Sequence record: MK562505
Direction: 5' to 3' (one strand)
Origin: Shigella phage Silverhawkium
Length of the DNA: 64,000 nt
The notes beneath the pieces were generated by a model that worked only from the letters and a program-made list of their open reading frames with translations, was not told where the DNA came from and made no database searches. Below, piece after piece: positions 38,425 through 59,291 of this stretch. Numbering within the stretch: position 1 is the first letter of the stretch; each line of letters opens with the position of its first letter. A program made the position numbers and the translations under genes.

Positions 38425-38525
38425 ACACGCCGTAACGTGTGAAGGAATCGAACCTTCGCCTTTTCTTTACCAGAGAAATAGATTGTTTAACTTGCTGTAA
38501 ACGGTCTTCTGTAAATTGTTGGAAC
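38425..38525 (-). ncRNA. orphan tRNA-like element (T-arm only) of unknown function
   Basis: Perfect T-arm GAAGG-TTCGATT-CCTTC at 38441-38457 but no matching acceptor, D or anticodon arms; overlaps repeated 24-nt motif. Confidence 0.3.
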
Positions 38526-49845: not shown

Positions 49846-51560
49846 GAGTAAAATTTACGAAATTTATATTTCTTATAAAATTTGGATTCACTCCGTTCAT
49901 CTTGGGTCACCATGATATGTGATAAAATATCTACCCCTTCTTAACAACCTATCTAAGCATACTCTCTATATAGTATTATATAGTATCTATATATCCTCTT
50001 AGTCCCTTTCTAGTGATTTGATATAGCTATCTCATAGTGAACTGTATAGCCCCTTCTAAATAGCCTCTTAACAAGCCCTCTAACAAGCCTTTCTTAACCA
50101 CCTATACAATCACCTTCCTAGCCTCTTAATAACCCCTTAGAAGCCCCTATACCCATCTTAATCTCTATGTTACCTGTGTTACCCTCTATAGATGGTTCAC
50201 TAGGGTCAACTAAGCCTCTATATAGACTGTTATATAGAACTAAACAGGTATTCCCTTCTAGTTGATTCGGTTGTTCTTAAGAATCAACCTCTTAGGCTTA
50301 CCCTACAAGGTCTAACACGGTATTAACAAGGTATCTTATAAGCCTGTTTTTACCTGTATTATATTAGATAGTGTATAGATAGTTATTCAGTTCTATAAAA
50401 TTTTTATAAAATAGACTGTCAAGTGTTTATTTAGGGGTCTTGAGAGAATCTGAAAAATATCTGTCTAGGATGTATATCTGCTTGGTAGCCCTTAACAGCC
50501 CTGTAACATCCCCTTTGCAAAATCTTAAAATATCATTAACAATTTCTTAACAACTCTAACAAGCTCCTAACAAGTCTCCAGAGTTCTTAACAGACCCTTA
50601 ACAGTTCTAACAAGGGCTTAACAAGTTCTTAACAGTTGTTGCATAGTCTTTACAGATGCTTAACAGATGACTAACAAGAGCTAACAGGGATTGGTAACAA
50701 TACCAATTAGTTAATTTTAAAGAGTTATTTTGTTAGGGATTGGTAACAATACCAATTAGATTATTAACAAGTTCCTAACAAGTGTTTAACCTTTTTAACA
50801 GTCTCTTAACATGGTCACTATCTCTTGGTTTATAGTTCCCTATCGTTCTTAGTGATTCTTTAAATAGCCCTCTTAAAAGCCCTGTATAGCTCTGTATAGC
50901 CTCTTCTTAGTCTCTCCTTAGTATCTATAGCCCAACTACCTGTATAGCTCTTTATAGCCCTTTCTAGGGGCTTTTATAGAGACTTCAAAGTGTCTTACAA
51001 GGTTGTAACATAGTCTTAACAAGGATTTAACAAGGGGCTAACAAGCATAACTATGTAGTAATTGTTAAAAATTTGTTAAGAAAATGTTAAGGGGGCTAGC
51101 TTTTACGATACTATTACGTAACTTTGAAGTGACTTTTAAGCTACTTTATAGCCCCTATAACATACTTTTTAGTAACTAACAAGCCCTTTTTAGTAGTTCA
51201 CTAGGGATTGGTAACAATACCAATAAGATACTAGCCAGCATATAAGCTTATACCCTTATAAGATTCTTTTAAGGCTCTAGGAAGCTCTATAAAGGGCTTT
51301 AAAGAGTGGGTTAATTGATTGGTTAAGTTGAGATGATAAGCCGTTATAGAGCGTTATAGAGCGTTTAAGGGATTGCCCTTCCCTTTCGGGTTATGGGCTT
51401 ATATTTATAGTTGATTTGATAAGAGAATATAGAGTAAACTATAGAGTTATTGTTCTAAATGTCTGGAAAGGGATTGTATAAGGATTCGATAGAGTCCTGT
51501 CTCATAGACGTTAAAAAGCCCCATTTAAGGGGCTGTTAAGGTATCTGGGGCTATTTGCCC
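49846..51560. repeat. 1.7 kb ORF-free region densely packed with short direct repeats (iteron-like)
   Basis: More than 25 copies of YTAACA(A)G at about 11-12 bp phasing, (C)TRTATAGC repeats, and three copies of GGGATTGGTAACAATACCAAT. Confidence 0.75.
50691..50706. promoter_or_regulatory. palindromic site TTGGTA-acaa-TACCAA (copy 1 of 3)
   Basis: Perfect 6-bp inverted repeat with 4-bp spacer inside conserved 24-mer; other copies at 50740-50755 and 51208-51223. Confidence 0.5.
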
Positions 51561-51575
51561 CGATGCGGCGTCTTA

Positions 51576-51827
51576 TTAGTCATTGAAGCCGTTTTTGTTG
51601 TAGTAAAGAGTGATAATAGAATCACCCCAATAGTAAGTTGTAACGCCGTCTTTTAAGACTTCCTGTTTTGTTTCTTTCCAGAAATTTTCTGACGGTTGAT
51701 AGTCCTGAATAGTTGCTTTCAGACACATTTCAATCATTCCGAAAGCATCACCAGTGCCTACCATGTCAAATTTAACATCTAAAACGTGAAAACCAAAGTT
51801 GTTAACAGTTGCGCGGATAGTTGCCAT
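51576..51827 (-). CDS. hypothetical small protein (83 aa)
   Basis: ORF preceded by conserved cassette CCTAAACTGGAGATTCTAAAATG. Confidence 0.45.
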   Translation of the reverse strand: MATIRATVNNFGFHVLDVKFDMVGTGDAFGMIEMCLKATIQDYQPSENFWKETKQEVLKDGVTTYYWGDSIITLYYNKNGFND

Positions 51828-52141
51828 TTTTAGAATCTCCAGTTTAGGATTGTTTAGGTTCTAAATAGTAGGGGCTTTTACACCCCTTGTCAACACTTAT
51901 TAGATAACTTTCTTATAAGAGTTACCAGATAAGATATAGTTAGTAACTGAGTGATTTAGTAAGTCTACACCAGTGATAACTACCGTTTCTTCATTTTTTC
52001 TTTCTTCGTGCTCTTTTTTCATCTCTTCCCAACGTTTAGCACCAAATTTACTAATCATACGCTGTTCAAAATTCATCTTTCTAGTCTCCAGTTTAGGATT
52101 TTTGTTTAGTGGGGAAGTTTCCCTCCCCGTTGAAAGTAATA

Positions 52142-52405
52142 TTAATTCATTGCCGCGTAGGTTGCAAGTCTTTTTTCGTTATATTTTGAAAGAATCTCAC
52201 AAGATAAAACATCATACTTAACAATTGCTTCAGATTTTGTCAAGTCAAAGTGTCCAAATGTTTCCCCATCTTTAAACCCTACCACTTCGTAAGATTCTTT
52301 GATTTGTTCACCTGTAAACATGTCGGATTCGACACGGTGAAACAATGAAACATCTTCTGTTACAGTGCCAATTTTTAACAGTTCGATAAGTTCTACATGT
52401 TCCAT
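52142..52405 (-). CDS. hypothetical small protein (87 aa)
   Basis: ORF preceded by conserved promoter/hairpin/RBS cassette. Confidence 0.45.
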   Translation of the reverse strand: MEHVELIELLKIGTVTEDVSLFHRVESDMFTGEQIKESYEVVGFKDGETFGHFDLTKSEAIVKYDVLSCEILSKYNEKRLATYAAMN

Positions 52406-52465
52406 TTTGAATCTCCAGTTTAGGATTTAGTGTGGAAGGTCATTCCCTCCCCGTTGATAAGTACT

Positions 52466-52993
52466 TTACAGACTTTCGATTAACTGGTCAAGCCCTTTTT
52501 GCATATCTTTTAAGGATTTTTCATGTAATTTTATCATGTCGTTGATTGCTTGCCCTAACTGAAGAGAGTAATCACCGTCTTTTGTTTCACTTGTATAGAT
52601 GTTCTCTACATCATACAGATTAAAAGGATTGCACCCTGTACCCATTGCCTGAGTCCCAAAAGCCAACGGCATGATATACAAATTAAGAGACTTTATAGAG
52701 CGCTCATAAGCCATTTTATAGCGGTTAATCTCTTCTTTTGATGACTTGATGCAATGCTCGTAGAGTTCTGCAACTATAGCCATAAAATCCGGTAAAATCA
52801 TTGCAACTGCTTTCATAAAATTGTTTGCTGTTACAAGTTTTACATTTGGGCGATGAATGTAATATTTTTTATCACTTCCCTTTGTGATGACTGCAAAGAG
52901 TTTAGCATTACAACGGAATTCGAAAGTGTCTTTTACTGGTTTGGTCATTACGTCTTTTGAGCGGATAGTGTTAATTGCAGTGAACTTATTCAT
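52466..52993 (-). CDS. hypothetical protein (175 aa)
   Basis: ORF preceded by conserved cassette with hairpin GGGGAGGGAAACTTCCCC. Confidence 0.5.
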   Translation of the reverse strand: MNKFTAINTIRSKDVMTKPVKDTFEFRCNAKLFAVITKGSDKKYYIHRPNVKLVTANNFMKAVAMILPDFMAIVAELYEHCIKSSKEEINRYKMAYERSIKSLNLYIMPLAFGTQAMGTGCNPFNLYDVENIYTSETKDGDYSLQLGQAINDMIKLHEKSLKDMQKGLDQLIESL

Positions 52994-53053
52994 CTTGATT
53001 CTCCAGTTTAGGATTTTTGTTTAATGGGGAAGTTTCCCTCCCCGTTGATAAGT

Positions 53054-53082
53054 ACTTTACTTGTTTTGATTTGCCTTTGCAA
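53054..53082 (-). promoter_or_regulatory. sigma70-like promoter (TTGCAA-17-TAAAGT), type-A cassette
   Basis: Hexamers followed by ACTTATCAACGGGGAGGGAAACTTCCCC hairpin and CCTAAACTGGAG RBS block; same cassette near 52080 and 55860. Confidence 0.45.
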
Positions 53083-53392
53083 GCTTTTTATTGAAAAAAT
53101 AATCTTGAATCTCACTTGCTATCAGCAGACCAAAAGGAATAACCACTGATACAATCATGCCACACAGAATAGGGTTTTTAATTACTTCCATCATTTTAGA
53201 ATCTCCAGTTTAGGAAAGCGTTATTGCTTGAGATAAACTATATAGACTTTGATGAGTCATTGCAAGTAATTTTTAAGCTTATCTATAAAGAATCTTTTAA
53301 GTGATTCCTTTTAGATAAACCCCCTCGAACAAAGTTACCAATGTCAAGGGGTATTGTCAAGATAATTTTTAATGTTTTTTGTAAGTCATTGA

Positions 53393-53734
53393 TTAGCTTA
53401 TAAAGATTTTTTCAGGCTTGACATAGGTTAATCTCTGTGATTTTAGTAAGTCACTCCAGATTAATCCCGCTATGTGACTATAACCCTTTTCACGTAGTTG
53501 TTTCATTGTCTCCGCTCTAGTTTCAAAGCGGCTTGCGTAGTATTCAGTGTTAAGGGTTGTTTTGTTTCCTTCGTTATCTGTATGCACAATTTGCATCACT
53601 TGAAAGGGGCTTACATCTTCCCCCCTATTCCATTGCTCAAAGTACTTCAGGCACTGCATAGGAGTCATTTTATCATTCACCTGAGTAGACCATGATGAAT
53701 TTTCTTTGTCAGTGATAACTGTTACGTAAGCCAT
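53393..53734 (-). CDS. hypothetical protein (113 aa)
   Basis: ORF preceded by conserved cassette. Confidence 0.45.
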   Translation of the reverse strand: MAYVTVITDKENSSWSTQVNDKMTPMQCLKYFEQWNRGEDVSPFQVMQIVHTDNEGNKTTLNTEYYASRFETRAETMKQLREKGYSHIAGLIWSDLLKSQRLTYVKPEKIFIS

Positions 53735-53786
53735 TTTAGAATCTCCAGTTTAGGATTGTTGGGGCTTGCTTGCCCCGTTGATGAGT

Positions 53787-53815
53787 ACTTTACTTGTTTT
53801 GTTTTCTAGTGTCAA
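53787..53815 (-). promoter_or_regulatory. sigma70-like promoter (TTGACA-17-TAAAGT), type-C cassette
   Basis: Hexamers followed by hairpin GGGGCAAGCAAGCCCC and CCTAAACTGGAG RBS block. Confidence 0.45.
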
Positions 53816-54045
53816 TCTTTTTCTATGATTATTTCATATTCTTTATCGACACTATCAAAATAGATTCCGTATTCGTCCTCAGTCTTGTAATAACATTGTA
53901 TATCATCGCTTTTTGGATAGTCAAGCCTTGCGATTTGGCATACAGCAATTGCATTTTCTTCTGTACCTGTGAACTCTTCAAGCCCTTTAAAGTCACATTG
54001 CGACCCGTTACAGATTGATAGTATTAGATAGATTGTTGTAAGCAT
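53812..54045 (-). CDS. hypothetical small protein with hydrophobic N-terminus (77 aa)
   Basis: ORF; possible signal peptide MLTTIYLILSICNG. Confidence 0.4.
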   Translation of the reverse strand: MLTTIYLILSICNGSQCDFKGLEEFTGTEENAIAVCQIARLDYPKSDDIQCYYKTEDEYGIYFDSVDKEYEIIIEKD

Positions 54046-54108
54046 GTTTTAAGCCTCTTATAAGCCCCTACACGGGGCTTTTATGGTTAACTGATACGTT
54101 TGCTTATC

Positions 54109-54666
54109 TTAAGCGGTAAAGCTCTCTAAATCGCTTTCTGTGATGTTAGATTGCATATTTTCGAAGATATCACAATAAACGTTACTCATTTCATCGTTAC
54201 GCTGTACCATTGCGGCAATATTGCGTAATTCATCCGGCAGATAACCCAAATTACGATTTTGCAAGCTGGGAACAAAGAAAGGTGCATACATTGTATTAAA
54301 ATCTGTTACGTAAACCTTTTTAATCCATTCCTTATCAAAGTATTCTGTAAAACTTGCAACGTCGCTCATATTTTCACAACTCCAATCGTCTTGCAACTCT
54401 TCGTCTGGTATGTCAAGCTCTAAAATAACTATTTTTTGCGACTTCATTTGATAAGCTGCTGTGATACTTGCACTATCAAGAGCATTTTTAATACCCTCAT
54501 CCGTGATTTGTTCGTTGTCCATTTCTTCAACGTCATAGAACTTGCTTACAGGGTAGACATAAAAACATCCATCCATATCTGAGCAATTCCAAGCGCCTGA
54601 TGGCTTATCGCCACCATTTAACAGGTTTACAAAGTTTTCTTGAGTAGTACCGTGAAAGCATTTCAT
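54109..54666 (-). CDS. hypothetical acidic protein (185 aa)
   Basis: ORF preceded by conserved cassette. Confidence 0.45.
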   Translation of the reverse strand: MKCFHGTTQENFVNLLNGGDKPSGAWNCSDMDGCFYVYPVSKFYDVEEMDNEQITDEGIKNALDSASITAAYQMKSQKIVILELDIPDEELQDDWSCENMSDVASFTEYFDKEWIKKVYVTDFNTMYAPFFVPSLQNRNLGYLPDELRNIAAMVQRNDEMSNVYCDIFENMQSNITESDLESFTA

Positions 54667-54750
54667 TTTAGATTCTCCAGTTTAGGATTGTTGGTAAAAT
54701 TCTTTATCTGGGGCTTATCTTATCGAACTATAAACCCCATGTAAAGCATT

Positions 54751-54999
54751 TTATTTAGTTTTCTTTGTAAAGATTAGTTTAACTGCAACAGTGGGCAACT
54801 CTTCAATACTTGTGAACAAAGTCACCTTTTGAGTCTTGACATTATAGCCATTTTTTGCAGCGTATGCCGTAAACCGATTCACAATATAGCTGTAAGTTTT
54901 TGCCGTATTATCTGGCATATGGTATAAATAGGGCTTGCCTAAATTTTGCGGTTGTGTTAATAGTCGGCAAGTGTCTGGAACGTTTAAGTAATTCAGCAT
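54751..54999 (-). CDS. hypothetical small protein (82 aa)
   Basis: ORF preceded by conserved cassette. Confidence 0.45.
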   Translation of the reverse strand: MLNYLNVPDTCRLLTQPQNLGKPYLYHMPDNTAKTYSYIVNRFTAYAAKNGYNVKTQKVTLFTSIEELPTVAVKLIFTKKTK

Positions 55000-55087
55000 T
55001 TTAGAATCTCCAGTTTAGGATTTTTGGGGCTTGCTTGCCCCGTTGATGAGTACTTTAATCTATCTAAAAATCAGTGTCAAACTATTT

Positions 55088-55489
55088 TTAAAGTTCTGCG
55101 TAAATTACATCGCAGATATCTTGAAAATCTTGCTTTGTCAAGTTGCGCTGTAACCAAGTTGCGAAAAAATCAGCAATTGCAAAATTTGCATCGAACTCGA
55201 TAGATAGCCACACTTTAACAGCAAATCGAAACATTTTCAAGTCTAGTTCTTTATTCATAACTTTTGATTTGGCTAACATGTCAGCCATTTCATATTGTGC
55301 GCCATCAAGTGTACTACCATTTGCAACGTTTGCAAGTGAATTTTTAATGTTTTCTACATCTAAAATCACTCCCTGAATTTTACCGATAATGTTATGCAAT
55401 GTTTCATCAGGTGCGGTTGATGTAATGGCATTGATGCGGTTTACAGTCAAACGTGCTTTCAGGATTGCAACTTCTTTATTGTTAGCCAT
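55088..55489 (-). CDS. hypothetical protein (133 aa)
   Basis: ORF preceded by type-B cassette (hairpin GGGGTTATCAGGCTGATAAGATAGCCCC). Confidence 0.45.
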   Translation of the reverse strand: MANNKEVAILKARLTVNRINAITSTAPDETLHNIIGKIQGVILDVENIKNSLANVANGSTLDGAQYEMADMLAKSKVMNKELDLKMFRFAVKVWLSIEFDANFAIADFFATWLQRNLTKQDFQDICDVIYAEL

Positions 55490-55579
55490 TTTTAATACTC
55501 CAGTTTAGGTTGGTTGTTTGGTAAATCTCTTTATCTGGGGCTATCTTATCAGCCTGATAACCCCATGTAAAGCAATTTA

Positions 55580-55852
55580 TTAAACTAAGTGTAATTTTTT
55601 ACCGTTAACAATGATGTAACTTACGCCGCTATTACTATAAACATCTTGATAAATTCTGCGTAACTTGCCCAAATAACGTACTTTCCAAGACGTTGGAATC
55701 TTTTTTCCATAGCCCGTAGCAGTTTTTTGAAGCCCTGCCAGTTGCCAATCTAAGATATGTTGTTCTGCTTGCAACTCTTCAAAGTTTAAAACCCCGTCAA
55801 TGTAAACTTTTAAGGTAACGTTTAAGGTACGGCCATTGTTAGTTGTATACAT
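55580..55852 (-). CDS. hypothetical small protein (90 aa)
   Basis: ORF preceded by conserved cassette. Confidence 0.45.
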   Translation of the reverse strand: MYTTNNGRTLNVTLKVYIDGVLNFEELQAEQHILDWQLAGLQKTATGYGKKIPTSWKVRYLGKLRRIYQDVYSNSGVSYIIVNGKKLHLV

Positions 55853-55951
55853 GTTTTGATTCTCCAGTTTAGGATTTTTGTTTAGTGGGGAAGTTTCCCT
55901 CCCCGTTGATAAGTACTTTACTTGTTTTGATTTGCCTTTGCAAGCTTATTT

Positions 55952-56281
55952 TTAAGAATTTTTTCTTTTGTTTATTTCTTGTGCAACAACTGGATAATAG
56001 TCTGTTAAATCAGCCACTTGCAAGGACTCTAACAGTACATTATAATCATTGATTAGTTCAAAATCACCAGATAAAACATCATTGATTTGGTATGTTTTAG
56101 CCTTAAATCTGAAGCTCATCTCTAAACGTTGCAATTGTGTACCATCTAAACGCTCTAAAAAGCCCCTGACAAGGTTTATTTTAACTTCCTTAGTGGTTAT
56201 CTCATTTACTTTGTTTAGCGCCTTATAAGCCTTGTAAAGCGCTACAATTGAGACCAGCAAAGCAACACCAGAGATTAACAT
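55952..56281 (-). CDS. membrane-anchored small protein (109 aa)
   Basis: N-terminal hydrophobic helix MLISGVALLVSIVALY. Confidence 0.45.
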   Translation of the reverse strand: MLISGVALLVSIVALYKAYKALNKVNEITTKEVKINLVRGFLERLDGTQLQRLEMSFRFKAKTYQINDVLSGDFELINDYNVLLESLQVADLTDYYPVVAQEINKRKNS

Positions 56282-56571
56282 TATGATTTCCCCTTGTGAA
56301 ATAATTTACCAGTATGACTAATTTCAAAAGAGTCTATCATGTCTTTTGTAGACTTAACAGAACTTTTATTAGTGTTATCATAAATATCAACCTGAAGCAA
56401 AGGTTTTTTGTATTCTTTACAAAAGTTCCATACACAAATAACAACTTCTTTACCATTGATTTTTCCATGATACCATTCCGTAATATCATGAGTTCGGCGC
56501 ATAGATTCTATGAAGTTGATATCTTGTAATAGTTTGCTGAGTTTAGAGCGTACATGAGCGGCAATAAACAT
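56281..56571 (-). CDS. hypothetical small protein (96 aa)
   Basis: ORF preceded by conserved cassette. Confidence 0.45.
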   Translation of the reverse strand: MFIAAHVRSKLSKLLQDINFIESMRRTHDITEWYHGKINGKEVVICVWNFCKEYKKPLLQVDIYDNTNKSSVKSTKDMIDSFEISHTGKLFHKGKS

Positions 56572-56662
56572 TTTAGATTCTCCAGTTTAGGATTGTTAGT
56601 TGTAAATCTCTTTATCTGGGGCTATCTTATCAGCCTGATAACCCCATGTAAAGCAATTTATT

Positions 56663-57175
56663 TTAAATATTGAAGATATTCATCACGGAATCTTTTAAAG
56701 CTTCCAAGCGCTCTAAAACTTCCCCTTCAGCACCTGAATTACTCACTTCCTCTTTTAATCTTTCCTCTAAATCTTCCCCGTCAAGATAGCACCAATCAAA
56801 GGAATAAGCAAGTGAAAAACTGTTTAGGACTGTATTTCCGTTGTTATCAACCACTGAAGCAAACAAGATATAGTTTGATGCTTCCAAATCACGCTGTAAT
56901 TCGTCCTGTAAGCTCTTATAAGCTTCCTGTGATGGGTTAACCCTTCCTTGTTTTGAATAGTCGCTCATAAGCTGTGATAATTCGTAATGCTGAGGAATAG
57001 CATATTTATAATCGCTACGTCCTGCATTTTTAACTTTTATTGTAACCCCGCCTTTGTGCTCATCTGTAAATTGCCAGTTTTCCACACAGTGGGAAGATTC
57101 ATAAAAGTTTACAGCTTCATAAACGATGGAATAGTTTTCTTTCTGTACTTCAAAGGTTGCGTCAACAGTTTTCAT
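56663..57175 (-). CDS. hypothetical acidic protein (170 aa)
   Basis: ORF preceded by conserved cassette. Confidence 0.45.
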   Translation of the reverse strand: MKTVDATFEVQKENYSIVYEAVNFYESSHCVENWQFTDEHKGGVTIKVKNAGRSDYKYAIPQHYELSQLMSDYSKQGRVNPSQEAYKSLQDELQRDLEASNYILFASVVDNNGNTVLNSFSLAYSFDWCYLDGEDLEERLKEEVSNSGAEGEVLERLEALKDSVMNIFNI

Positions 57176-57262
57176 TTTAGATTCTCCAGTTTAGGATTGT
57201 TGGTAAAATTCTTTATCTGGGGCTTATACTAGCAACTTATAAACCCCATGTAAAGCACTTTA

Positions 57263-57520
57263 TTAGATTAAATTGCTAGTTAATGCTAAGTGCATTTTAT
57301 AACCTTGTTTAGTGAATACATTCACTTTACCGATGGTTTTTACACCTTTAAAAAGGTTGTGTGAACTATGTTTCAGGGTTAATTCTTTATCAGTCTTTAC
57401 TCCCCATCTTACATCAGAATTTTTTCCGTTGTCAACAACTTTTCCATTTAATTTTTTAGCAGTTGCGCGAGCGTCATCACGAGATTTTGCAGAAATTACG
57501 ATGTTTTTGATAGTAGCCAT
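57263..57520 (-). CDS. hypothetical small basic protein (85 aa)
   Basis: ORF preceded by conserved cassette. Confidence 0.45.
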   Translation of the reverse strand: MATIKNIVISAKSRDDARATAKKLNGKVVDNGKNSDVRWGVKTDKELTLKHSSHNLFKGVKTIGKVNVFTKQGYKMHLALTSNLI

Positions 57521-57610
57521 TTTTAATACTCCAGTTTAGGTTGGTTGTTTGGTAAATCTCTTTATCTGGGGCTATCTTATCAGCCTAATAACCCCATGTA
57601 AAGCAATTTA

Positions 57611-57994
57611 TTAGTTAATTTCAAAGATTGTTACATATCCATCACTACCAACAACCTGAGATACTCCAGCTTTTACCACGTTATAACCCATGTTGTCAAG
57701 ATGATAAACTGCATCTTCATAGCCATATTTGCAACCTTGATAACGGCGCTTGTCGCAACGAATTATGGTCTTCCCACGTCCTGCCAGTGCATGGATAATA
57801 GCTTTTTCTCCTGAGAGTGTACCATCTAACATTGTAGCGGTATAGTGATTTATTTTGTTGCCATTCACATCATACTTAAAATTGTATGCGTGGACAACAA
57901 TTATTTTGCCTTTTAAGTTTTCACTCATAGATTTTTCTAGTGCATCACGAAAGTTTTCTTTGTTGATGAATTTAGGCATATAATATTTTTTCAT
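57611..57994 (-). CDS. hypothetical protein (127 aa)
   Basis: ORF preceded by conserved cassette and promoter. Confidence 0.45.
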   Translation of the reverse strand: MKKYYMPKFINKENFRDALEKSMSENLKGKIIVVHAYNFKYDVNGNKINHYTATMLDGTLSGEKAIIHALAGRGKTIIRCDKRRYQGCKYGYEDAVYHLDNMGYNVVKAGVSQVVGSDGYVTIFEIN

Positions 57995-58043
57995 TTTAGA
58001 TTCTCCAGTTTAGGATAGTTGGGAGTTGTTCCCGTTGATGCAA

Positions 58044-58071
58044 ATACTATAAAACCAGATTCATACAGTCA
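58044..58071 (-). promoter_or_regulatory. sigma70-like promoter (TTGACT-16-TAGTAT)
   Basis: Read on minus strand upstream of cassette and gene 57611..57994. Confidence 0.45.
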
Positions 58072-58246
58072 AGAAATTTTTTAAAAATATTTTTGGCATG
58101 TTGTGAATGAAACGGGTGCGTACACGTAGCACTAAACAGAAAACTGGTCAAGAATTATTTTTCAATCCGCTACAAATTTTTCTCTTGACTTTTGGGAGGA
58201 AGGGGAGTAAGAGGGGATGGTGGGGCTGGCTACCTATTGCGCTCTA

Positions 58247-58430
58247 CCTGCACAAATTGAAAATAAATTTCCTTGCCCGACCTTGGCGGGGTCTGCACGT
58301 TTTGAAAATGAAAAAACTCTTTGGAGTTGACCTGCACAATTCTAAAATGAATTTTCCCTTTGGAGATTGTGGAGATGTGTCTACAGATTTATGTGTAGCT
58401 TTTTATCTGCACGTTTTAGAAATAAAAAAG
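58247..58430. repeat. four direct repeats of about 24 bp, YCTGCAC(A/G)WTT..AAAAT(R)AA
   Basis: Copies start near 58247, 58292, 58331, 58406; ORF-track ORF 58107..58460 is probably an artefact of these repeats. Confidence 0.6.
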
Positions 58431-58460
58431 CCCTCCTTACCTCATTTTTTAAAATGGTAA
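58405..58460 (-). terminator. probable rho-independent terminator downstream of macro-domain gene
   Basis: Imperfect hairpin AAGCCTTCTTTACC...GGTAAGGAGGGCTT followed by TTTTTTATTT on minus strand. Confidence 0.4.
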
Positions 58461-58496: not shown

Positions 58497-59291
58497 TTAG
58501 TTACGTGCTTCAACAAAGGTAATACTCTTATCTGTGATAATTACATCAACTTCTTCATGGTTATCTGCAAGAATGTATACGCTTGCATCTACACCAAATG
58601 TGATAGCTCTGCAAGAATGTCCCTGTAACCTGTGGGTAACTTGAGCGTTACTCTTAGAGTACTCCTCAACCGGAGGGTTACTTTTATGTACCTTACCTTT
58701 GCGTTTCACCCGAAGGGTAACTTGCTCATTGTCTAATAGTGCAACACCATCGAAGAATTGTGGTTCGCTGTAGTTCTTCCAACCCTTAACCGGACTAGTC
58801 AACTGACTATACATCTTATCTTCATAGATATACATGTACACATCAACGTCCTTCATTGTCTGGTTAATGATTGACAGCACAGCCATTCCATCAAGACCAC
58901 CAATCCCTGCACCAAGCATTGGCAAGCCAACCTTCTTAAGTTGGTTAACTTTACAGTAATTGTTCAGACGCTGCAAAGCTTCTTCTAAAGCATTGTAACG
59001 TGCATCTTTACCAGTGATAACCTGAGTGTAAAGGTTTGCAATTCGACCTTGTTTTAATCGAGCTACAGAGATATTCCCAAGCATAATGTGCATTGGTTTA
59101 TGGTCTTCTCCACCAACAACTCCATAAACTTCTGAATCAGTTTCATAAGCTTTTGGATATCGTTTAGAAATGGTTGCTGCAATACCTGCACCCATCAGAT
59201 TCATACAGTTACATCCGTGACCAATGATATCAAACTTCTTGTTATCAAAAGCTTCAAAGATATCACCTTTAATGATTTTCACGATACCCAT
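58497..59291 (-). CDS. macro-domain protein (TARG1/OARD1-like ADP-ribose-binding fold) with C-terminal extension
   Basis: N-terminal KGDIFEAF...DIIGHGCNCMNLMGAGIAATI resembles macro-domain signature; 264 aa. Confidence 0.55.
   Translation of the reverse strand: MGIVKIIKGDIFEAFDNKKFDIIGHGCNCMNLMGAGIAATISKRYPKAYETDSEVYGVVGGEDHKPMHIMLGNISVARLKQGRIANLYTQVITGKDARYNALEEALQRLNNYCKVNQLKKVGLPMLGAGIGGLDGMAVLSIINQTMKDVDVYMYIYEDKMYSQLTSPVKGWKNYSEPQFFDGVALLDNEQVTLRVKRKGKVHKSNPPVEEYSKSNAQVTHRLQGHSCRAITFGVDASVYILADNHEEVDVIITDKSITFVEARN

What the first reader, a model, noticed from the sequence alone, without database searches (positions are those of the whole stretch)
51576..58100. Array of about 15 small genes, each with its own conserved promoter/hairpin/RBS cassette
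Almost every minus-strand gene between 51.6 and 58.1 kb is preceded by the same about 70-90 nt block: a sigma70-like promoter with -10 TAAAGT or TAAGAT, one of three short GC hairpins (GGGGAGGGAAACTTCCCC, GGGGCAAGCAAGCCCC, GGGGTTATCAGGCTGATAAGATAGCCCC), then the invariant CCTAAACTGGAG-N(7-9)-ATG. So the genes look individually transcribed yet co-regulated, with a shared 5'-UTR structure. The products are small and unrecognisable, two with hydrophobic N-termini. Such arrays in virulent phages commonly hold host-takeover or anti-defence genes. At least two cassette-preceded ORFs under 60 aa (near 51.9-52.08 kb and 53.06-53.19 kb) are missing from the ORF track.
Basis: partly seen in the sequence, partly recalled or inferred. 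Interest (0 to 1): 0.6.

Follow-up and report, generated by a model that had tools for sequence, protein, structure and literature searches.

The report
Phage early-gene promoter–hairpin cassette array
A Felix O1-like phage carries 16 small genes of unknown function, 14 of them each preceded by a copy of one standard promoter, hairpin and ribosome-site cassette; these resemble the 'PeSL' cassettes of T4-like phages and mark the exact points where related phages gain, lose or swap such genes.

Summary
CCTAAACTGGAG occurs 14 times, all on the minus strand between 51.8 and 58.0 kb, each 7-9 nt before an ATG (0.26 expected by chance). Each copy sits in a cassette with a sigma70-like promoter (17-nt spacer). 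Thirteen of the 14 also have a GGG(G)...CCC(C) stem-loop.

The window is an Ounavirinae phage (a protein 100% identical to one of Shigella phage Silverhawkium). The cassettes are conserved across the subfamily: Mooglevirus, Felixounavirus and Kolesnikvirus loci were read directly, and Suspvirus was seen only through BLAST matches.

In 29 cassettes from five genomes the -35 and -10 hexamers are conserved and the spacer is not. The hairpin starts exactly 10 nt after the -10. In five cassettes of the window the hairpin instead overlaps the promoter and extends to a roughly 21-bp helix supported by compensatory changes.

Gene gains, losses and replacements between relatives are bounded by the 12-mer. 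One 248-bp module is identical in two phages whose flanking genes are 64% and 81% identical.

This anatomy and behaviour match the PeSL cassettes described for T4-like phages. The 12-mer itself was noted in 2015 (phage Mordin) as 'start-associated-sequence-like'.

Verdict: a new member of a known kind, of moderate interest. The functions of the proteins remain unknown.

The parts
51513..58072 (-). Whole array: 16 small genes and 14 cassettes, from the first promoter to the closing intrinsic terminator.
57995..58072 (-). Cassette 1 (type P1): TTGACT-N17-TAGTAT, weak stem GGGAACAACTCCC (58021-58033), 12-mer at 58003-58014.
   Evidence: In relatives this cassette drives a 68-aa gene that is absent here.
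57521..57602 (-). Cassette 2 (type C): TTTACA-N17-TAAGAT with TG before the -10. The hairpin overlaps the spacer and the -10. Extended helix 57553-57610.
   Evidence: -21.3 kcal/mol, z -4.7
57176..57254 (-). Cassette 3 (type C): TTTACA-N17-TAGTAT. Extended helix 57204-57262.
   Evidence: -21.5 kcal/mol, z -4.7
56572..56652 (-). Cassette 4 (type C): TTTACA-N17-TAAGAT. Extended helix 56603-56660.
   Evidence: (-23.4 kcal/mol, z -5.8)
55853..55943 (-). Cassette 5 (type A): TTGCAA-N17-TAAAGT, then 10 nt, then GGGGAGG-GAAA-CTTCCCC (55887-55904).
   Evidence: -13.4 kcal/mol, z -4.1
55490..55571 (-). Cassette 6 (type C): TTTACA-N17-TAAGAT. Extended helix about 55522-55579.
55000..55080 (-). Cassette 7 (type B): TTGACA-N17-TAAAGT, then 10 nt, then GGGGC-AAGCAA-GCCCC (55026-55041).
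   Evidence: z -3.1
54667..54745 (-). Cassette 8 (type C): TTTACA-N17-TAAGAT. Extended helix about 54695-54753.
53735..53815 (-). Cassette 9 (type B): TTGACA-N17-TAAAGT, hairpin 53761-53776.
53195..53265 (-). Cassette 10: TTGCAA-N17-TATAGT, no G/C hairpin, 12-mer at 53203-53214.
52994..53082 (-). Cassette 11 (type A): TTGCAA-N17-TAAAGT, hairpin 53026-53043. The promoter lies inside the 3' end of the 45-aa ORF.
52406..52491 (-). Cassette 12 (type A variant): TTGACC-N17-TAAAGT, hairpin GGGGAGGGAATGACCTTCC (52434-52452).
52077..52167 (-). Cassette 13 (type A): TTGCAA-N17-TAATAT, hairpin 52111-52128. In Sf13, KPS64 and HP1 this same cassette drives the last gene directly.
51828..51893 (-). Cassette 14: TTGACA-N17-TACTAT, with hairpin GGGGTGTAAAAGCCCC (51871-51886) inside the spacer.
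51837..52085 (-). Mobile module: 58-aa gene, cassette 14 and the second 12-mer. It is 248/248 identical to Shigella phage Sf17 and absent from Sf13, KPS64 and HP1, where a single 12-mer marks the junction.
   Evidence: It sits in a different context in Salmonella phage GEC_vB_BS.
57611..57994 (-). Gene, 127 aa, PHROG 4495 (unknown function).
57263..57520 (-). Gene, 85 aa, PHROG 5089 (unknown function).
56663..57175 (-). Gene, 170 aa, PHROG 4190 (unknown function). Homologues reach Erwinia phage phiEa21-4 and other phage groups.
56281..56571 (-). Gene, 96 aa, PHROG 4401 (unknown function).
55952..56281 (-). Gene, 109 aa, with an N-terminal hydrophobic segment. No cassette; its start overlaps the upstream stop (ATGA).
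55580..55852 (-). Gene, 90 aa, PHROG 3436 (unknown function).
55088..55489 (-). Gene, 133 aa, PHROG 4327 (unknown function).
54751..54999 (-). Gene, 82 aa, PHROG 9030 (unknown function). Phage allfine has an unrelated 67-aa gene in this slot.
54109..54666 (-). Gene, 185 aa, PHROG 3303 (unknown function). 100% identical to Shigella phage Silverhawkium gp115.
54062..54080 (-). Terminator-like hairpin AAGCCCCGTGTAGGGGCTT between the 185-aa and 77-aa genes.
53812..54045 (-). Gene, 77 aa, hydrophobic N-terminus ending LILSIC. No cassette.
53393..53734 (-). Gene, 113 aa, PHROG 4318 (unknown function).
53057..53194 (-). Gene, 45 aa, one transmembrane segment, PHROG 7482. Its last 11 codons are the promoter of cassette 11.
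52466..52993 (-). Gene, 175 aa, PHROG 4725 (unknown function).
52142..52405 (-). Gene, 87 aa, PHROG 7022 (unknown function).
51900..52076 (-). Gene, 58 aa, no PHROG. Present in only 20 phage records.
51576..51827 (-). Gene, 83 aa, PHROG 4559 (unknown function); last gene of the array.
51513..51561 (-). End of the array: stem GGGGCAAATAGCCCC (51547-51561), then the canonical intrinsic terminator AGCCCCTTAAATGGGGCTTTTT (51513-51534).
   Evidence: Felix O1 terminator t23 is its counterpart.
58420..58438 (-). Intrinsic terminator after the upstream macro-domain/phosphatase gene; it closes the preceding operon.
   Evidence: Felix O1 terminator t13 is its counterpart.

Best explanation
**What it is.** The block is the variable early-gene region of a Felix O1-like myovirus (Ounavirinae). 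It is built from repeated expression cassettes of the PeSL type ('promoter-early stem-loop'). Each cassette contains:
- an A-rich upstream tract;
- a host sigma70 promoter;
- a G/C-clamped stem-loop;
- an A/C-rich, G-poor leader;
- a standard translation-start block, (CAAT)CCTAAACTGGAG followed by 7-9 nt and ATG.

**Transcription (inferred).** Host RNA polymerase starts at every cassette soon after infection. Each small gene is therefore expressed on its own, whatever its neighbours are.

**Translation (inferred).** The open leader and the standard GGAG block give every gene, whatever its origin, a ready-made translation start.

**The stem-loop in the A, B and P1 cassettes (inferred).** The stem begins exactly 10 nt after the -10 hexamer, about 2-3 nt after the predicted transcript start. 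It would then be a 5'-terminal stem-loop that protects the mRNA from decay that depends on a free 5' end.

**The stem-loop in the C cassettes and the last cassette (inferred).** Here the stem overlaps the promoter and, in type C, extends into a helix of about 21 bp. Such a helix can only form in RNA that reads through from the upstream gene. It would attenuate, end-protect or mark that RNA for processing.

**Gene exchange (shown by comparison).** The repeated cassettes, and above all the invariant 12-mer, are the crossover points at which whole gene-plus-cassette modules are inserted, deleted or replaced between related phages.
For: **Promoters**
- All 14 cassettes have a -35/-10 pair with a 17-nt spacer.
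- In 29 A/B/P1 cassettes from five genomes, conservation is 1.45 bits per position at -35, 0.47 in the spacer and 1.52 at -10. An upstream A-tract is also conserved.
- In the Felix O1 RT-PCR, ORFs 16, 20, 21 and 22, which are orthologues of array genes, peak at 5 min (PMC3185647).

**Hairpins**
- The distance from the -10 to the stem is 10 nt in 29 of 29 cassettes, across five different -10 hexamers.
- The hairpins are stable relative to shuffles, z -3.1 to -5.8.
- Type A loops are GAAA or GAGA, both of the GNRA type.
- The type C extended helix is paired in 98.4% of cells. One pair occurs as G:C in 15 sequences, U:A in 7, A:U in 1 and G:U in 1. No shuffle reaches the observed covariation score.
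- Inner-stem variants keep their pairing. In phiEa21-4 the clamp GGGG/CCCC becomes GGTG/CACC.

**Translation-start block**
- The 12-mer is identical in 59 of 59 copies in four Mooglevirus-type genomes. It is confined to the array in the window and in the whole Sf13 genome.
- Translation-initiation regions of array genes are more open than those of 44 other genes in the window: mean unpaired probability 0.64 against 0.53, p = 6e-5. The leaders are 44% A and 12% G.

**Shuffling**
- The 58-aa module is 248/248 identical between the window and Sf17. The flanking genes are 121/190 and 204/252 identical. Sf13 has flanks 187/190 and 252/252 identical to Sf17 yet lacks the module, with one 12-mer at the junction.
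- The window lacks the 68-aa first gene, and cassette P1 is joined at the 12-mer to the next gene. HP1 lacks the 45-aa gene in the same manner.
- Unrelated genes occupy the same slots in Mordin, Sf13 and allfine.
- The 58-aa gene sits in a different context in GEC_vB_BS.
- Orthologous genes carry different cassette types in different phages.

**Match to PeSLs**
- The published anatomy is an A/T-rich tract, a sigma70 promoter, a stem that is usually GGGG...CCCC, a Shine-Dalgarno sequence and an ATG. The stem lies between -35 and -10, overlaps the -10, or lies downstream of the -10. PeSLs are associated with indels of small ORFs (PMC2839356 section 14; PMC4122927).
Against: - No transcript 5' or 3' ends are available for any Ounavirinae phage, so the transcription start sites are predictions.
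- None of the cassette stems passes the intrinsic-terminator scan, because none is followed by a U-tract. The phage's true terminators do have U-tracts. A terminator role like that shown for one RB49 PeSL is therefore doubtful here.
- The type C long helix needs read-through RNA, so the units cannot be fully insulated from each other.
- One cassette in the window and one in HP1 lack a hairpin altogether.
- In the Felix O1 RT-PCR, three other array orthologues (ORFs 17, 19 and 23) peaked at 25 min rather than 5 min.
- Most helix positions never vary. The covariation rests on few independent events, and the copies are related by duplication and gene conversion.
- The mechanism of recombination is inferred from end products only.
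Confidence: 0.75

Rival explanations
1. The array is one long early operon. It would be transcribed from the first promoter at about 58072, or from further upstream. The cassettes would be intercistronic RNA elements: processing sites of the RNase III or RNase E type plus stabilising hairpins, as in the phage T7 early transcript. On this view the -35/-10-like hexamers are not working promoters.
For: - The type C helix is about 21 bp with small internal loops. That is the size class of RNase III substrates (established knowledge of T7 early RNA processing).
- It can form only in read-through RNA.
- No cassette stem has a U-tract, so read-through is likely.
- Canonical terminators occur only at the two ends of the array and once inside it.
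Against: - The hexamers are conserved at exactly 17-nt spacing while the spacer sequence drifts, and there is an upstream A-tract.
- Five different -10 hexamers all lie 10 nt from the stem.
- Modules move between phages and between contexts with their own cassette. That only makes sense if the cassette supplies expression.
- RB49 PeSLs of the same design were strong promoters in reporter assays (PMC2839356).
- Processing and internal promoters are not mutually exclusive.
Confidence: 0.1
2. The invariant CCTAAACTGGAG block is chiefly an operator for a trans-acting factor, either encoded by the phage or borrowed from the host. The factor could be a translational repressor or a nuclease that cuts early mRNAs at the ribosome-binding site. 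T4 RegA and RegB act this way, and RegB cleaves GGAG in early Shine-Dalgarno sequences. Binding would switch off all array genes together after the early period.
For: - The 12-mer is identical in 59 of 59 copies in four genomes whose coding sequences differ by 15-35%. GGAG alone would be enough for ribosome binding.
- The motif is confined to this early array.
- Only four bases (GGAG) can pair with the 3' end of 16S rRNA (reasoned from the known 3'-end sequence, not computed here), so CCTAAACT is unexplained by ribosome pairing.
- The function of the analogous start-associated sequences of cluster K mycobacteriophages is still unknown (PMC12699233).
Against: - No RegA- or RegB-like protein was identified. 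The upstream phosphatase/macro gene was the only non-array protein scanned, so this is weak evidence.
- Felix O1 uses two variants, CCTAAACTGGAG and CCTTAAACTAGGAG. phiEa21-4 uses CCCTTAtAAAGGAA. The sequence therefore drifts between genera.
- Concerted evolution through the demonstrated recombination at this site could keep the copies identical without a binding factor.
Confidence: 0.15
3. The 12-mer is the core site of a dedicated site-specific recombination system. The array would then be an integron-like platform for capturing gene cassettes in a virulent phage.
For: - In the cleanest case both ends of the 100%-identical tract fall at the 12-mer, with divergence starting 1-2 nt outside it.
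- The three indels examined in detail, among the window, Mordin, Sf13, HP1, Sf17 and KPS64, are each bounded by a 12-mer on both sides.
- The authors of the PeSL work raised the possibility of a specific recombination protein (PMC2839356).
Against: - No integrase or recombinase gene was seen next to the array in the annotated relatives.
- The module's own cassette shares no homology with the other cassettes apart from the 12-mer and a few flanking bases. Ordinary short-homology recombination or template switching would therefore also end there.
- The PeSL paper cites evidence that phage T4's replication/recombination system needs only patches of homology under 50 bp (Singer et al. 1982, quoted in PMC2839356).
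Confidence: 0.05
4. The inverted repeats act at the DNA level. They could be cruciforms or operators for a dimeric DNA-binding regulator that shuts off the early promoters, for example the phage's Cro/CI-type helix-turn-helix protein. In type C the two TAAAGnGCTTTA palindromes flank the promoter.
For: - In type C the left and right elements are each nearly palindromic. They overlap the -35 hexamer and the predicted transcript start.
- Relatives encode a Cro/CI-type regulator elsewhere in the genome (Sf13 gp113).
- Base pairing in RNA cannot be told apart from base pairing in DNA by sequence alone.
Against: - The one variable position covaries between the distal halves, about 50 nt apart (columns 10 and 60). 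Its partners within each palindrome (columns 13 and 57) stay invariant. That pattern fits a long hairpin, not two separate palindromic operators.
- Stem sequences differ completely between types A, B and C, and only the pairing is kept.
- GNRA loops are a feature of RNA.
Confidence: 0.07

Closest known systems
PeSL (promoter-early stem-loop) cassettes of T4-like phages RB49/phi1, PST/T4 and nt-1/KVP40 (Arbiol et al. 2010, PMC2839356; Comeau et al. 2014, PMC4122927)
   Same: - The order of parts is the same: A/T-rich tract, sigma70-like early promoter with a 17-nt spacer, a stem-loop that is usually GGGG...CCCC, a Shine-Dalgarno sequence and an ATG.
- The set of stem positions is the same: between -35 and -10, overlapping the -10, or just downstream of the -10.
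- Both are clustered in a variable region of small ORFs of unknown function.
- In both, insertions, deletions and replacements between related phages have their junctions in the cassettes.
   Different: - The host lineage differs: Ounavirinae, with 85-90 kb genomes, rather than T4-like phages.
- These cassettes have an invariant 12-nt block (about 26 nt well conserved) around the Shine-Dalgarno sequence. Nothing like it is described for PeSLs.
- The stems have no U-tract here. One RB49 stem behaved as a strong terminator.
- Type C extends to a helix of about 21 bp.
- Mini-circles and promoter or terminator activity have not been tested here.
Start-associated sequences (SAS) of cluster K mycobacteriophages (Pope et al. 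2011, PMC3203893; PMC12699233)
   Same: - Both are short, nearly invariant motifs containing the Shine-Dalgarno sequence, a few bases upstream of the start codons of many non-structural genes.
- Both are restricted to one arm of the genome.
- The function of neither is known.
- The Mordin genome announcement already drew this analogy for this very motif (PMC4611695).
   Different: - The sequence is unrelated (GGGATAGGAGCCC against CCTAAACTGGAG).
- The hosts and phage types differ (temperate siphoviruses of Mycobacterium).
- SAS are not described as parts of promoter-hairpin cassettes or as recombination junctions.
Host-takeover module of Bacillus phage SPO1 and the early or pre-early regions at the genome ends of T7 and T5 (from general knowledge, not checked here)
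   Same: - Both are clusters of many small early genes of mostly unknown function served by several strong host-type promoters.
- Both lie next to a physical end of the genome. Here the array ends about 480 bp from the region that matches HP1's annotated 570-bp terminal repeat.
   Different: - There is no sequence relationship.
- In those phages the cassettes are not near-identical repeats.
- Here neither the function of the genes nor the order of DNA entry is known.
5'-terminal stem-loops that stabilise mRNA (E. coli ompA leader) and RNase III sites of the T7 early transcript (from general knowledge)
   Same: - In types A, B and P1 the stem begins about 2-3 nt from the predicted 5' end. That is within the distance at which a 5' hairpin protects against decay that depends on a free 5' end.
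- The type C helix has the length and the internal loops typical of RNase III substrates.
   Different: Neither role has been tested here, and there is no sequence similarity.
Direct repeats already annotated in Felix O1 and wV8
   Same: - These are the same sequences. The Felix O1 paper lists the 57-bp and 39-bp intergenic repeats (PMC3185647).
- The wV8 GenBank record marks DR_1 to DR_9 in these intergenic regions.
   Different: They were recorded only as repeats or, on the opposite strand, as terminators. No promoter, hairpin-cassette or recombination interpretation was given, and the wV8 paper does not mention them.

Membership tests
PeSL cassettes | A sigma70-like early promoter in each intergenic cassette. 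| tested here: met
   All 14 cassettes have one, each with a 17-nt spacer. The hexamers are conserved and the spacer is not, across 29 cassettes in five genomes. Promoter activity itself was not measured.
PeSL cassettes | A stable stem-loop, typically a G-run paired with a C-run, in one of the described positions relative to the promoter. | tested here: met
   Thirteen of 14 cassettes have one. Eight lie downstream of the -10, five overlap the spacer and the -10, and one lies inside the spacer. PMC2839356 section 14 lists these same positions.
PeSL cassettes | An A/T-rich tract upstream of the -35, and a Shine-Dalgarno sequence plus ATG at the 3' end. | tested here: met
   A conserved AAAAA tract lies upstream of the -35. 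GGAG lies 7-9 nt before the ATG in all 14 cassettes.
PeSL cassettes | Concentrated in a hyperplastic region of small, non-essential ORFs of unknown function. | tested here: met
   Fifteen of the 16 genes fall in PHROGs of unknown function and one has no family. The arrays read gene by gene held 9 to 20 genes in five genomes. The motif is absent from the rest of the window and from the rest of the Sf13 genome.
PeSL cassettes | Insertions, deletions and replacements between related phages have their junctions in the cassettes. | tested here: met
   Three indels are bounded by the 12-mer. Three slots hold replaced or translocated genes.
PeSL cassettes | The stem-loop terminates or attenuates upstream transcription. 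| tested here: inconclusive
   No cassette stem is followed by a U-tract, and none passes the terminator scan. A reporter assay or 3'-end mapping is needed.
PeSL cassettes | Recombination between neighbouring cassettes releases mini-circles. | not testable with these tools
   This needs inverse PCR on infected cells or on virion DNA.
PeSL cassettes | Occurrence in T4-like phages, the only group in which they have been described. | tested here: not met
   The window is an Ounavirinae phage. This is a matter of host range of the concept, not of mechanism.
Start-associated sequences (cluster K mycobacteriophages) | A match to the consensus GGGATAGGAGCCC with at most two mismatches. | tested here: not met
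   The motif here is CCTAAACTGGAG. Only GGAG is shared. The criterion is quoted in PMC12699233.
Start-associated sequences (cluster K mycobacteriophages) | A position a few bases upstream of start codons of non-structural genes, almost never inside genes. | tested here: met
   All 14 copies lie 7-9 nt upstream of an ATG, and none lies inside a gene.
Intrinsic (Rho-independent) terminators | A G/C-rich stem followed directly by a U-tract. | tested here: not met
   The scan found no minus-strand terminator-like site in the region. The sequences after the stems are A-rich, for example ACUAAACAAAAAU or AGAUAAAGAG.

The most novel reading that the evidence does not exclude
On this reading the invariant 12-mer is more than a good ribosome-binding site kept uniform by recombination. 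It would be a dedicated recognition element, read either by a recombination function or by a post-transcriptional regulator.

- **If read by a recombination function:** the array would be an integron-like platform in a virulent phage. It would capture self-expressing gene modules, with the 12-mer as the crossover core.
- **If read by a post-transcriptional regulator:** all captured genes would be switched off together after the early period.

The exact 12-mer-to-12-mer boundaries of a 248-bp module shared at 100% identity by two otherwise diverged phages are compatible with this reading. So is the identity of 59 of 59 copies across four genomes.
Probability: 0.12. Interest if true: 0.7.

Novelty: new member of a known kind. 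Interest (0 to 1): 0.4.

Why it matters
**Annotation.** The cassettes give a simple, sequence-readable rule for finding the early accessory genes of Felix O1-like phages, which are widely used for Salmonella, E. coli and Shigella typing and biocontrol. The rule also recovers very short genes that gene callers miss, such as the 45-aa and 58-aa ORFs here.

**Evolution.** The PeSL style of genome organisation, standard self-contained expression cassettes that double as recombination linkers, turns out not to be peculiar to T4-like phages. That supports it as a general solution for trying out new genes in virulent phages.

**Unsolved question.** The exact module boundaries at a 12-nt motif make an old question about 'start-associated sequences' directly testable in an E. 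coli-infecting phage with easy genetics.

**Engineering.** The cassettes mark natural, tolerated insertion points. They also offer a set of compact early promoter and leader units for phage engineering.

Tried and rejected
- **Pfam** scan of ten array proteins: no hit reached a gathering cut-off.
- **PHROGs:** every matching family is of unknown function.
- **185-aa protein.** Its N-terminal 'FHGT' suggested an ADP-ribosyltransferase-like motif. Sequence and profile searches of the PDB found nothing below E = 0.1. AlphaFold2 with 19 homologues gave a mean pLDDT of 55. I therefore ran no fold search and dropped the idea.
- **Rfam:** no family matches the cassettes, either at gathering thresholds or at E up to 1.
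- **Antisense partner of the 12-mer.** The search within the window returned only the opposite strand of the cassettes themselves. I did not repeat it with the array masked.
- **Transcript data.** Literature searches for transcription start sites or transcriptomes of Ounavirinae phages found nothing usable.
- **Other papers.** The wV8 paper says nothing about the repeats annotated in its GenBank record. The phiEa21-4 genome paper is not in the library and could not be checked.
- **Promoter scan.** The raw count for the region, 42 against 29.6 expected, is not informative by itself. The argument rests on position and cross-genome conservation.
- **Rejected: hairpins as intrinsic terminators.** They have no U-tracts.
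- **Rejected: type C as two independent palindromic operators.** The covariation is between the distal halves.
- **Technical limit.** Only the first locus fetched after each script run was copied to the script machine. KMM2, KPS64, SUSP1 and mistaenkt were therefore inspected only through annotation tables and alignments.

Full report
**1. What is in the sequence**

On the minus strand between 51.5 and 58.1 kb there are 16 tightly packed ORFs of 45-185 aa. The 12-mer CCTAAACTGGAG occurs 14 times in the window. All copies are on the minus strand, between 51837 and 58014. Dinucleotide-preserving shuffles give a mean of 0.26 copies and never more than 2. Every copy lies 7-9 nt upstream of the ATG of one of these ORFs.

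Two genes lack the motif. One (55952-56281) starts at an ATGA overlap with the preceding gene. The other (53812-54045) follows a terminator-like hairpin.

Upstream of each 12-mer is a -35/-10 pair with a 17-nt spacer. In 13 of the 14 cases there is also a G/C-clamped inverted repeat. So are the two short ORFs it flagged: 51900-52076 (58 aa) and 53057-53194 (45 aa). Both have annotated homologues in relatives.

**2. Whose genome this is**

The window is a Felix O1-like myovirus of the subfamily Ounavirinae. The structural and replication part is 85-90% identical to Mooglevirus phages such as Sf13 and Sf19. The array itself is about 80% identical to Mooglevirus and Suspvirus phages, in several pieces. 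One array protein is 100% identical to gp115 of Shigella phage Silverhawkium.

The array lies between a canonical intrinsic terminator that closes the upstream macro-domain/phosphatase operon (58420-58438) and another that ends the array (51513-51534). About 480 bp beyond the last gene begins the stretch (50484-51096) that matches the 570-bp terminal repeat annotated in Citrobacter phage HP1. The array therefore abuts a physical end of the genome.

**3. Cassette anatomy**

The cassettes fall into types.

- **Type A** (4 copies): TTGCAA or TTGACC, N17, TAAAGT or TAATAT, then 10 nt, then GGGGAGG-GAAA-CTTCCCC or a variant.
- **Type B** (2 copies): TTGACA, N17, TAAAGT, then 10 nt, then GGGGC-AAGCAA-GCCCC.
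- **Type P1** (the first cassette): TTGACT, N17, TAGTAT, then 10 nt, then a weak stem.
- **Type C** (5 copies): TTTACA, N17, TAAGAT or TAGTAT, often with TG before the -10. The hairpin occupies the spacer and the -10.
- **One cassette with the hairpin wholly inside the spacer** (51828-51893).
- **One cassette with no hairpin** (53195-53265).

After the hairpin comes an A/C-rich, G-poor leader (44% A, 12% G), followed by (CAAT)CCTAAACTGGAG(AATCTAAA)ATG. Conservation around the 12-mer extends to roughly 26 nt.

**4. Evidence that the promoters are real**

I aligned 29 A/B/P1 cassettes from five genomes (the window, Mordin, Sf13, HP1 and Felix O1) on the -10 hexamer.

- The -35 hexamer always lies 17 nt upstream and carries 1.45 bits per position.
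- The -10 carries 1.52 bits per position, while the spacer carries only 0.47.
- An A-tract upstream of the -35 is also conserved.

This is the pattern expected of promoters under selection, not of a repeat conserved as a block.

Published RT-PCR on Felix O1 places ORFs 16, 20, 21 and 22 in the 5-min class. These are orthologues of the 170-, 133-, 113- and 175-aa genes. ORFs 17, 19 and 23 peaked at 25 min (PMC3185647; orthology). No 5'-end mapping exists for this phage group in the searchable literature.

**5. The hairpins**

The main hairpins are much more stable than shuffled controls. Type A folds at -13.4 kcal/mol (z -4.1). Type B folds at -9.7 (z -3.1). Type C folds at -21 to -23 (z -4.7 to -5.8).

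In types A, B and P1 the stem starts exactly 10 nt after the -10 in 29 of 29 cassettes, across five different -10 hexamers. With a start site 7-8 nt after the -10, the transcript would begin with AAC or AC followed directly by the stem. From established work on the E. coli ompA leader, that is the geometry of 5'-terminal stem-loops which protect mRNA from 5'-end-dependent decay. This step is an inference. The type A loops are GAAA or GAGA, both GNRA tetraloops, which hints at selection on RNA.

Type C is different. RNA folding shows that the G/C stem is the tip of a longer helix. TAAAGT.CTTTA upstream, which includes the -35, pairs with TAAAG.GCTTTA downstream of the stem. The result is about 21 bp interrupted by a 1x1 and a 2x2 internal loop.

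- On 24 type C cassettes, 98.4% of cells are paired.
- One outer pair occurs as G:C (15), U:A (7), A:U (1) and G:U (1).
- None of 500 shuffles reaches the observed covariation, and sliding the partner strand destroys the pairing.
- The variable position covaries with a base 50 nt away, while its neighbours within each local palindrome stay constant. This argues for a long hairpin and against two separate palindromic operators.
- Inner-stem variants also keep their pairing: GGGGTTAT/ATAGCCCC, GGGGTTTAT/ATAAGCCCC, GGGGTTTAA/TTAAGCCCC and GGGGCTTA/TAAGCCCC. In Erwinia phage phiEa21-4 the clamp itself changes from GGGG/CCCC to GGTG/CACC.

The left arm lies upstream of the promoter embedded in the helix, so the helix can exist only in RNA that reads through from the upstream gene, or as a DNA cruciform. 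None of the cassette stems is followed by a U-tract, and none passes the terminator scan. The phage's true terminators do have U-tracts. I therefore regard strong intrinsic termination as unlikely. Attenuation, 3'-end protection or RNase III-type processing of read-through RNA seems the more likely role for type C. None of this has been tested.

**6. The translation-start block**

- The 12-mer is identical in 59 of 59 copies in the window, Mordin, Sf13 and HP1. The coding sequences of these phages differ by 15-35%.
- In the complete Sf13 genome all 16 copies lie in the array.
- Felix O1 has the 12-mer three times, a one-mismatch copy once, and a variant CCTTAAACTAGGAG four times.
- phiEa21-4 uses CCCTTAtAAAGGAA.
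- Only GGAG can pair with the 3' end of 16S rRNA (reasoned from the known 3'-end sequence), so the rest of the block is not explained by ribosome pairing.
- The initiation regions of array genes are predicted to be more open than those of 44 other genes in the window: mean unpaired probability 0.64 against 0.53, Mann-Whitney p = 6e-5.

**7. The cassettes are the joints of gene exchange**

Gene order in five genomes shows a common backbone with whole gene-plus-cassette units present or absent.

- **The 58-aa gene module.** The cleanest case is the 58-aa gene together with cassette 14. From the first base after one 12-mer to the last base of the next, 248 of 248 bases are identical between the window and Shigella phage Sf17. 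The flanking genes are only 121/190 and 204/252 identical. Sf13 has flanks 187/190 and 252/252 identical to Sf17, yet it lacks the module and has a single 12-mer at the junction.
- **A deletion in the window.** The window lacks the 68-aa first gene of the relatives, and the 53-aa gene of Sf13 and HP1. The first cassette is joined at the 12-mer to the 127-aa gene.
- **A deletion in HP1.** HP1 lacks the 45-aa gene, and that gene's cassette is joined to the 175-aa gene.
- **A variable slot.** Between the 77-aa and 113-aa genes, Mordin and Sf13 carry unrelated 65-aa genes on opposite sides of a shared 73-aa gene. The window and HP1 have nothing there.
- **A replacement.** Phage allfine has an unrelated 67-aa gene where the window has the 82-aa gene.
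- **A translocation.** In Salmonella phage GEC_vB_BS the 58-aa gene follows the 175-aa gene and replaces the last gene of the array. It occurs in only 20 phage records.
- **Cassette swapping.** Orthologous genes carry different cassette types in different phages. The 113-aa gene, for example, has type B in the window and HP1, type C in Mordin and Sf13, and type A in Felix O1.
- **Abundance.** A type C cassette query finds 1323 places in 251 phage records, nearly all of them named as enterobacterial phages.

**8. Comparison with what is known**

The anatomy and behaviour match the 'promoter-early stem-loop' (PeSL) cassettes of T4-like phages. Those have an A/T-rich tract, a sigma70 promoter, a stem that is usually GGGG...CCCC, a Shine-Dalgarno sequence and an ATG. 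Five subclasses are defined by whether the stem lies upstream of the -35, overlaps the -35, lies between -35 and -10, overlaps the -10, or lies just downstream of the -10. PeSLs are clustered in hyperplastic regions and are associated with insertions, deletions and replacements (PMC2839356; PMC4122927).

Three things differ here:
- the phage lineage;
- the invariant 12-nt block;
- the lack of evidence for termination and for mini-circles.

Parts of the feature were already on record.
- The Felix O1 paper lists the 57-bp and 39-bp intergenic direct repeats without comment.
- The wV8 GenBank record marks DR_1 to DR_9.
- The Mordin genome announcement reports the 26-bp repeat CCAACAATCCTAAACTGGAGAATCTA upstream of eight genes. 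It compares it with the start-associated sequences of cluster K mycobacteriophages and states that the role is unknown (PMC4611695).

In the library searched I found no description of the composite cassette, of its promoters, of the long type C helix, or of the 12-mer as a recombination junction in this phage group.

**9. What the genes do**

This remains unknown. Fifteen proteins fall in PHROGs without a function and one has no family. No Pfam domain reaches threshold. Three proteins have hydrophobic N-terminal or transmembrane segments. A structure prediction for the 185-aa protein was of too low confidence to use.

**10. Verdict**

The best explanation, with confidence about 0.75, is a PeSL-type array of self-contained early expression cassettes that also serve as recombination linkers. 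Promoter function and crossover at the 12-mer are well supported by comparison. The roles of the hairpins and of the non-Shine-Dalgarno part of the 12-mer are inferred.

It is a new member of a known kind, of moderate interest. The open and testable point is why the 12-mer is invariant.

Noticed in passing
window 58195-58440 (minus strand), upstream of the first cassette: There are four copies of a roughly 22-nt repeat, TTT(T)CATTTTnnAAnnGTGCAG(G/A), at about 58246-58270, 58293-58326, 58332-58365 and 58407-58440. They are followed by a C-rich tract (ccagccccaccatcccctcttactccccttcctccc). Both features are conserved in Felix O1 (L003 7990-8215). Relatives annotate a small plus-strand gene across this stretch. 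Their function is unknown; they could be binding sites or promoters of another class.
   Followed up: partly
window 49900-51550: This is a 1.6-kb non-coding region between the convergent gene blocks. It is packed with more than 20 copies of (C/T)TAACA(A/G), many of them 10-11 bp or about 20 bp apart, mostly between 50500 and 50820. It also holds three copies of a 31-nt repeat, AGGGATTGGTAACAATACCAATTAG. Positions 50484-51096 match the 570-bp terminal repeat annotated in Citrobacter phage HP1. The physical genome ends, and perhaps packaging or replication signals, probably lie here.
   Followed up: partly
window 53057-53082: The last 11 codons of the 45-aa membrane protein (NKKLAKANQNK) are encoded by the -35 hexamer and spacer of the next cassette's promoter, and its stop codon is the first three bases of that promoter's -10 hexamer (TAAAGT). 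The same promoter sequence is non-coding upstream of the 90-aa gene at 55.9 kb. Cassette recombination can therefore create the C-termini of upstream proteins.
   Followed up: partly
window 51837-58014 (each 12-mer): UAAACUGGAG, ten bases of the 12-mer, is identical (not complementary) to a stretch in the 16S rRNA sequence printed in PMC9387219 (...GTGATAAACTGGAGGAAGG...). The chance of such a 10-mer match is roughly 0.5% for 16S alone. I found it after the fact, so it may well be coincidence.
   Followed up: no
window 38433-38496 (minus strand): Rfam's tRNA model scores 35.5 bits here, above its gathering score. ARAGORN reports no tRNA at this position. It may be a degenerate or pseudo-tRNA within the block of 26 tRNA genes.
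   Followed up: no
window 53812-54045: The 77-aa protein begins MLTTIYLILSICNGSQC. That is a hydrophobic start ending in a lipobox-like L-S-I-C, so it may be a small lipoprotein, as some phage superinfection-exclusion proteins are. This is not supported by any search.
   Followed up: no
window 58497-59291: The gene immediately upstream of the array matches PHROG 335, 'phosphatase'. Relatives annotate it as a macro-domain protein, a domain that binds ADP-ribose. In the Felix O1 RT-PCR its orthologue, ORF13, is in the 5-min class.
   Followed up: no
L001 (Mordin), upstream of the 126-aa gene: Mordin carries a partial tandem duplication of a type C cassette (...agccccagataaagagctttaccaaCTTTACATGGGG...). 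This looks like a by-product of recombination between the CTTTAC segments that occur on both sides of the hairpin.
   Followed up: no
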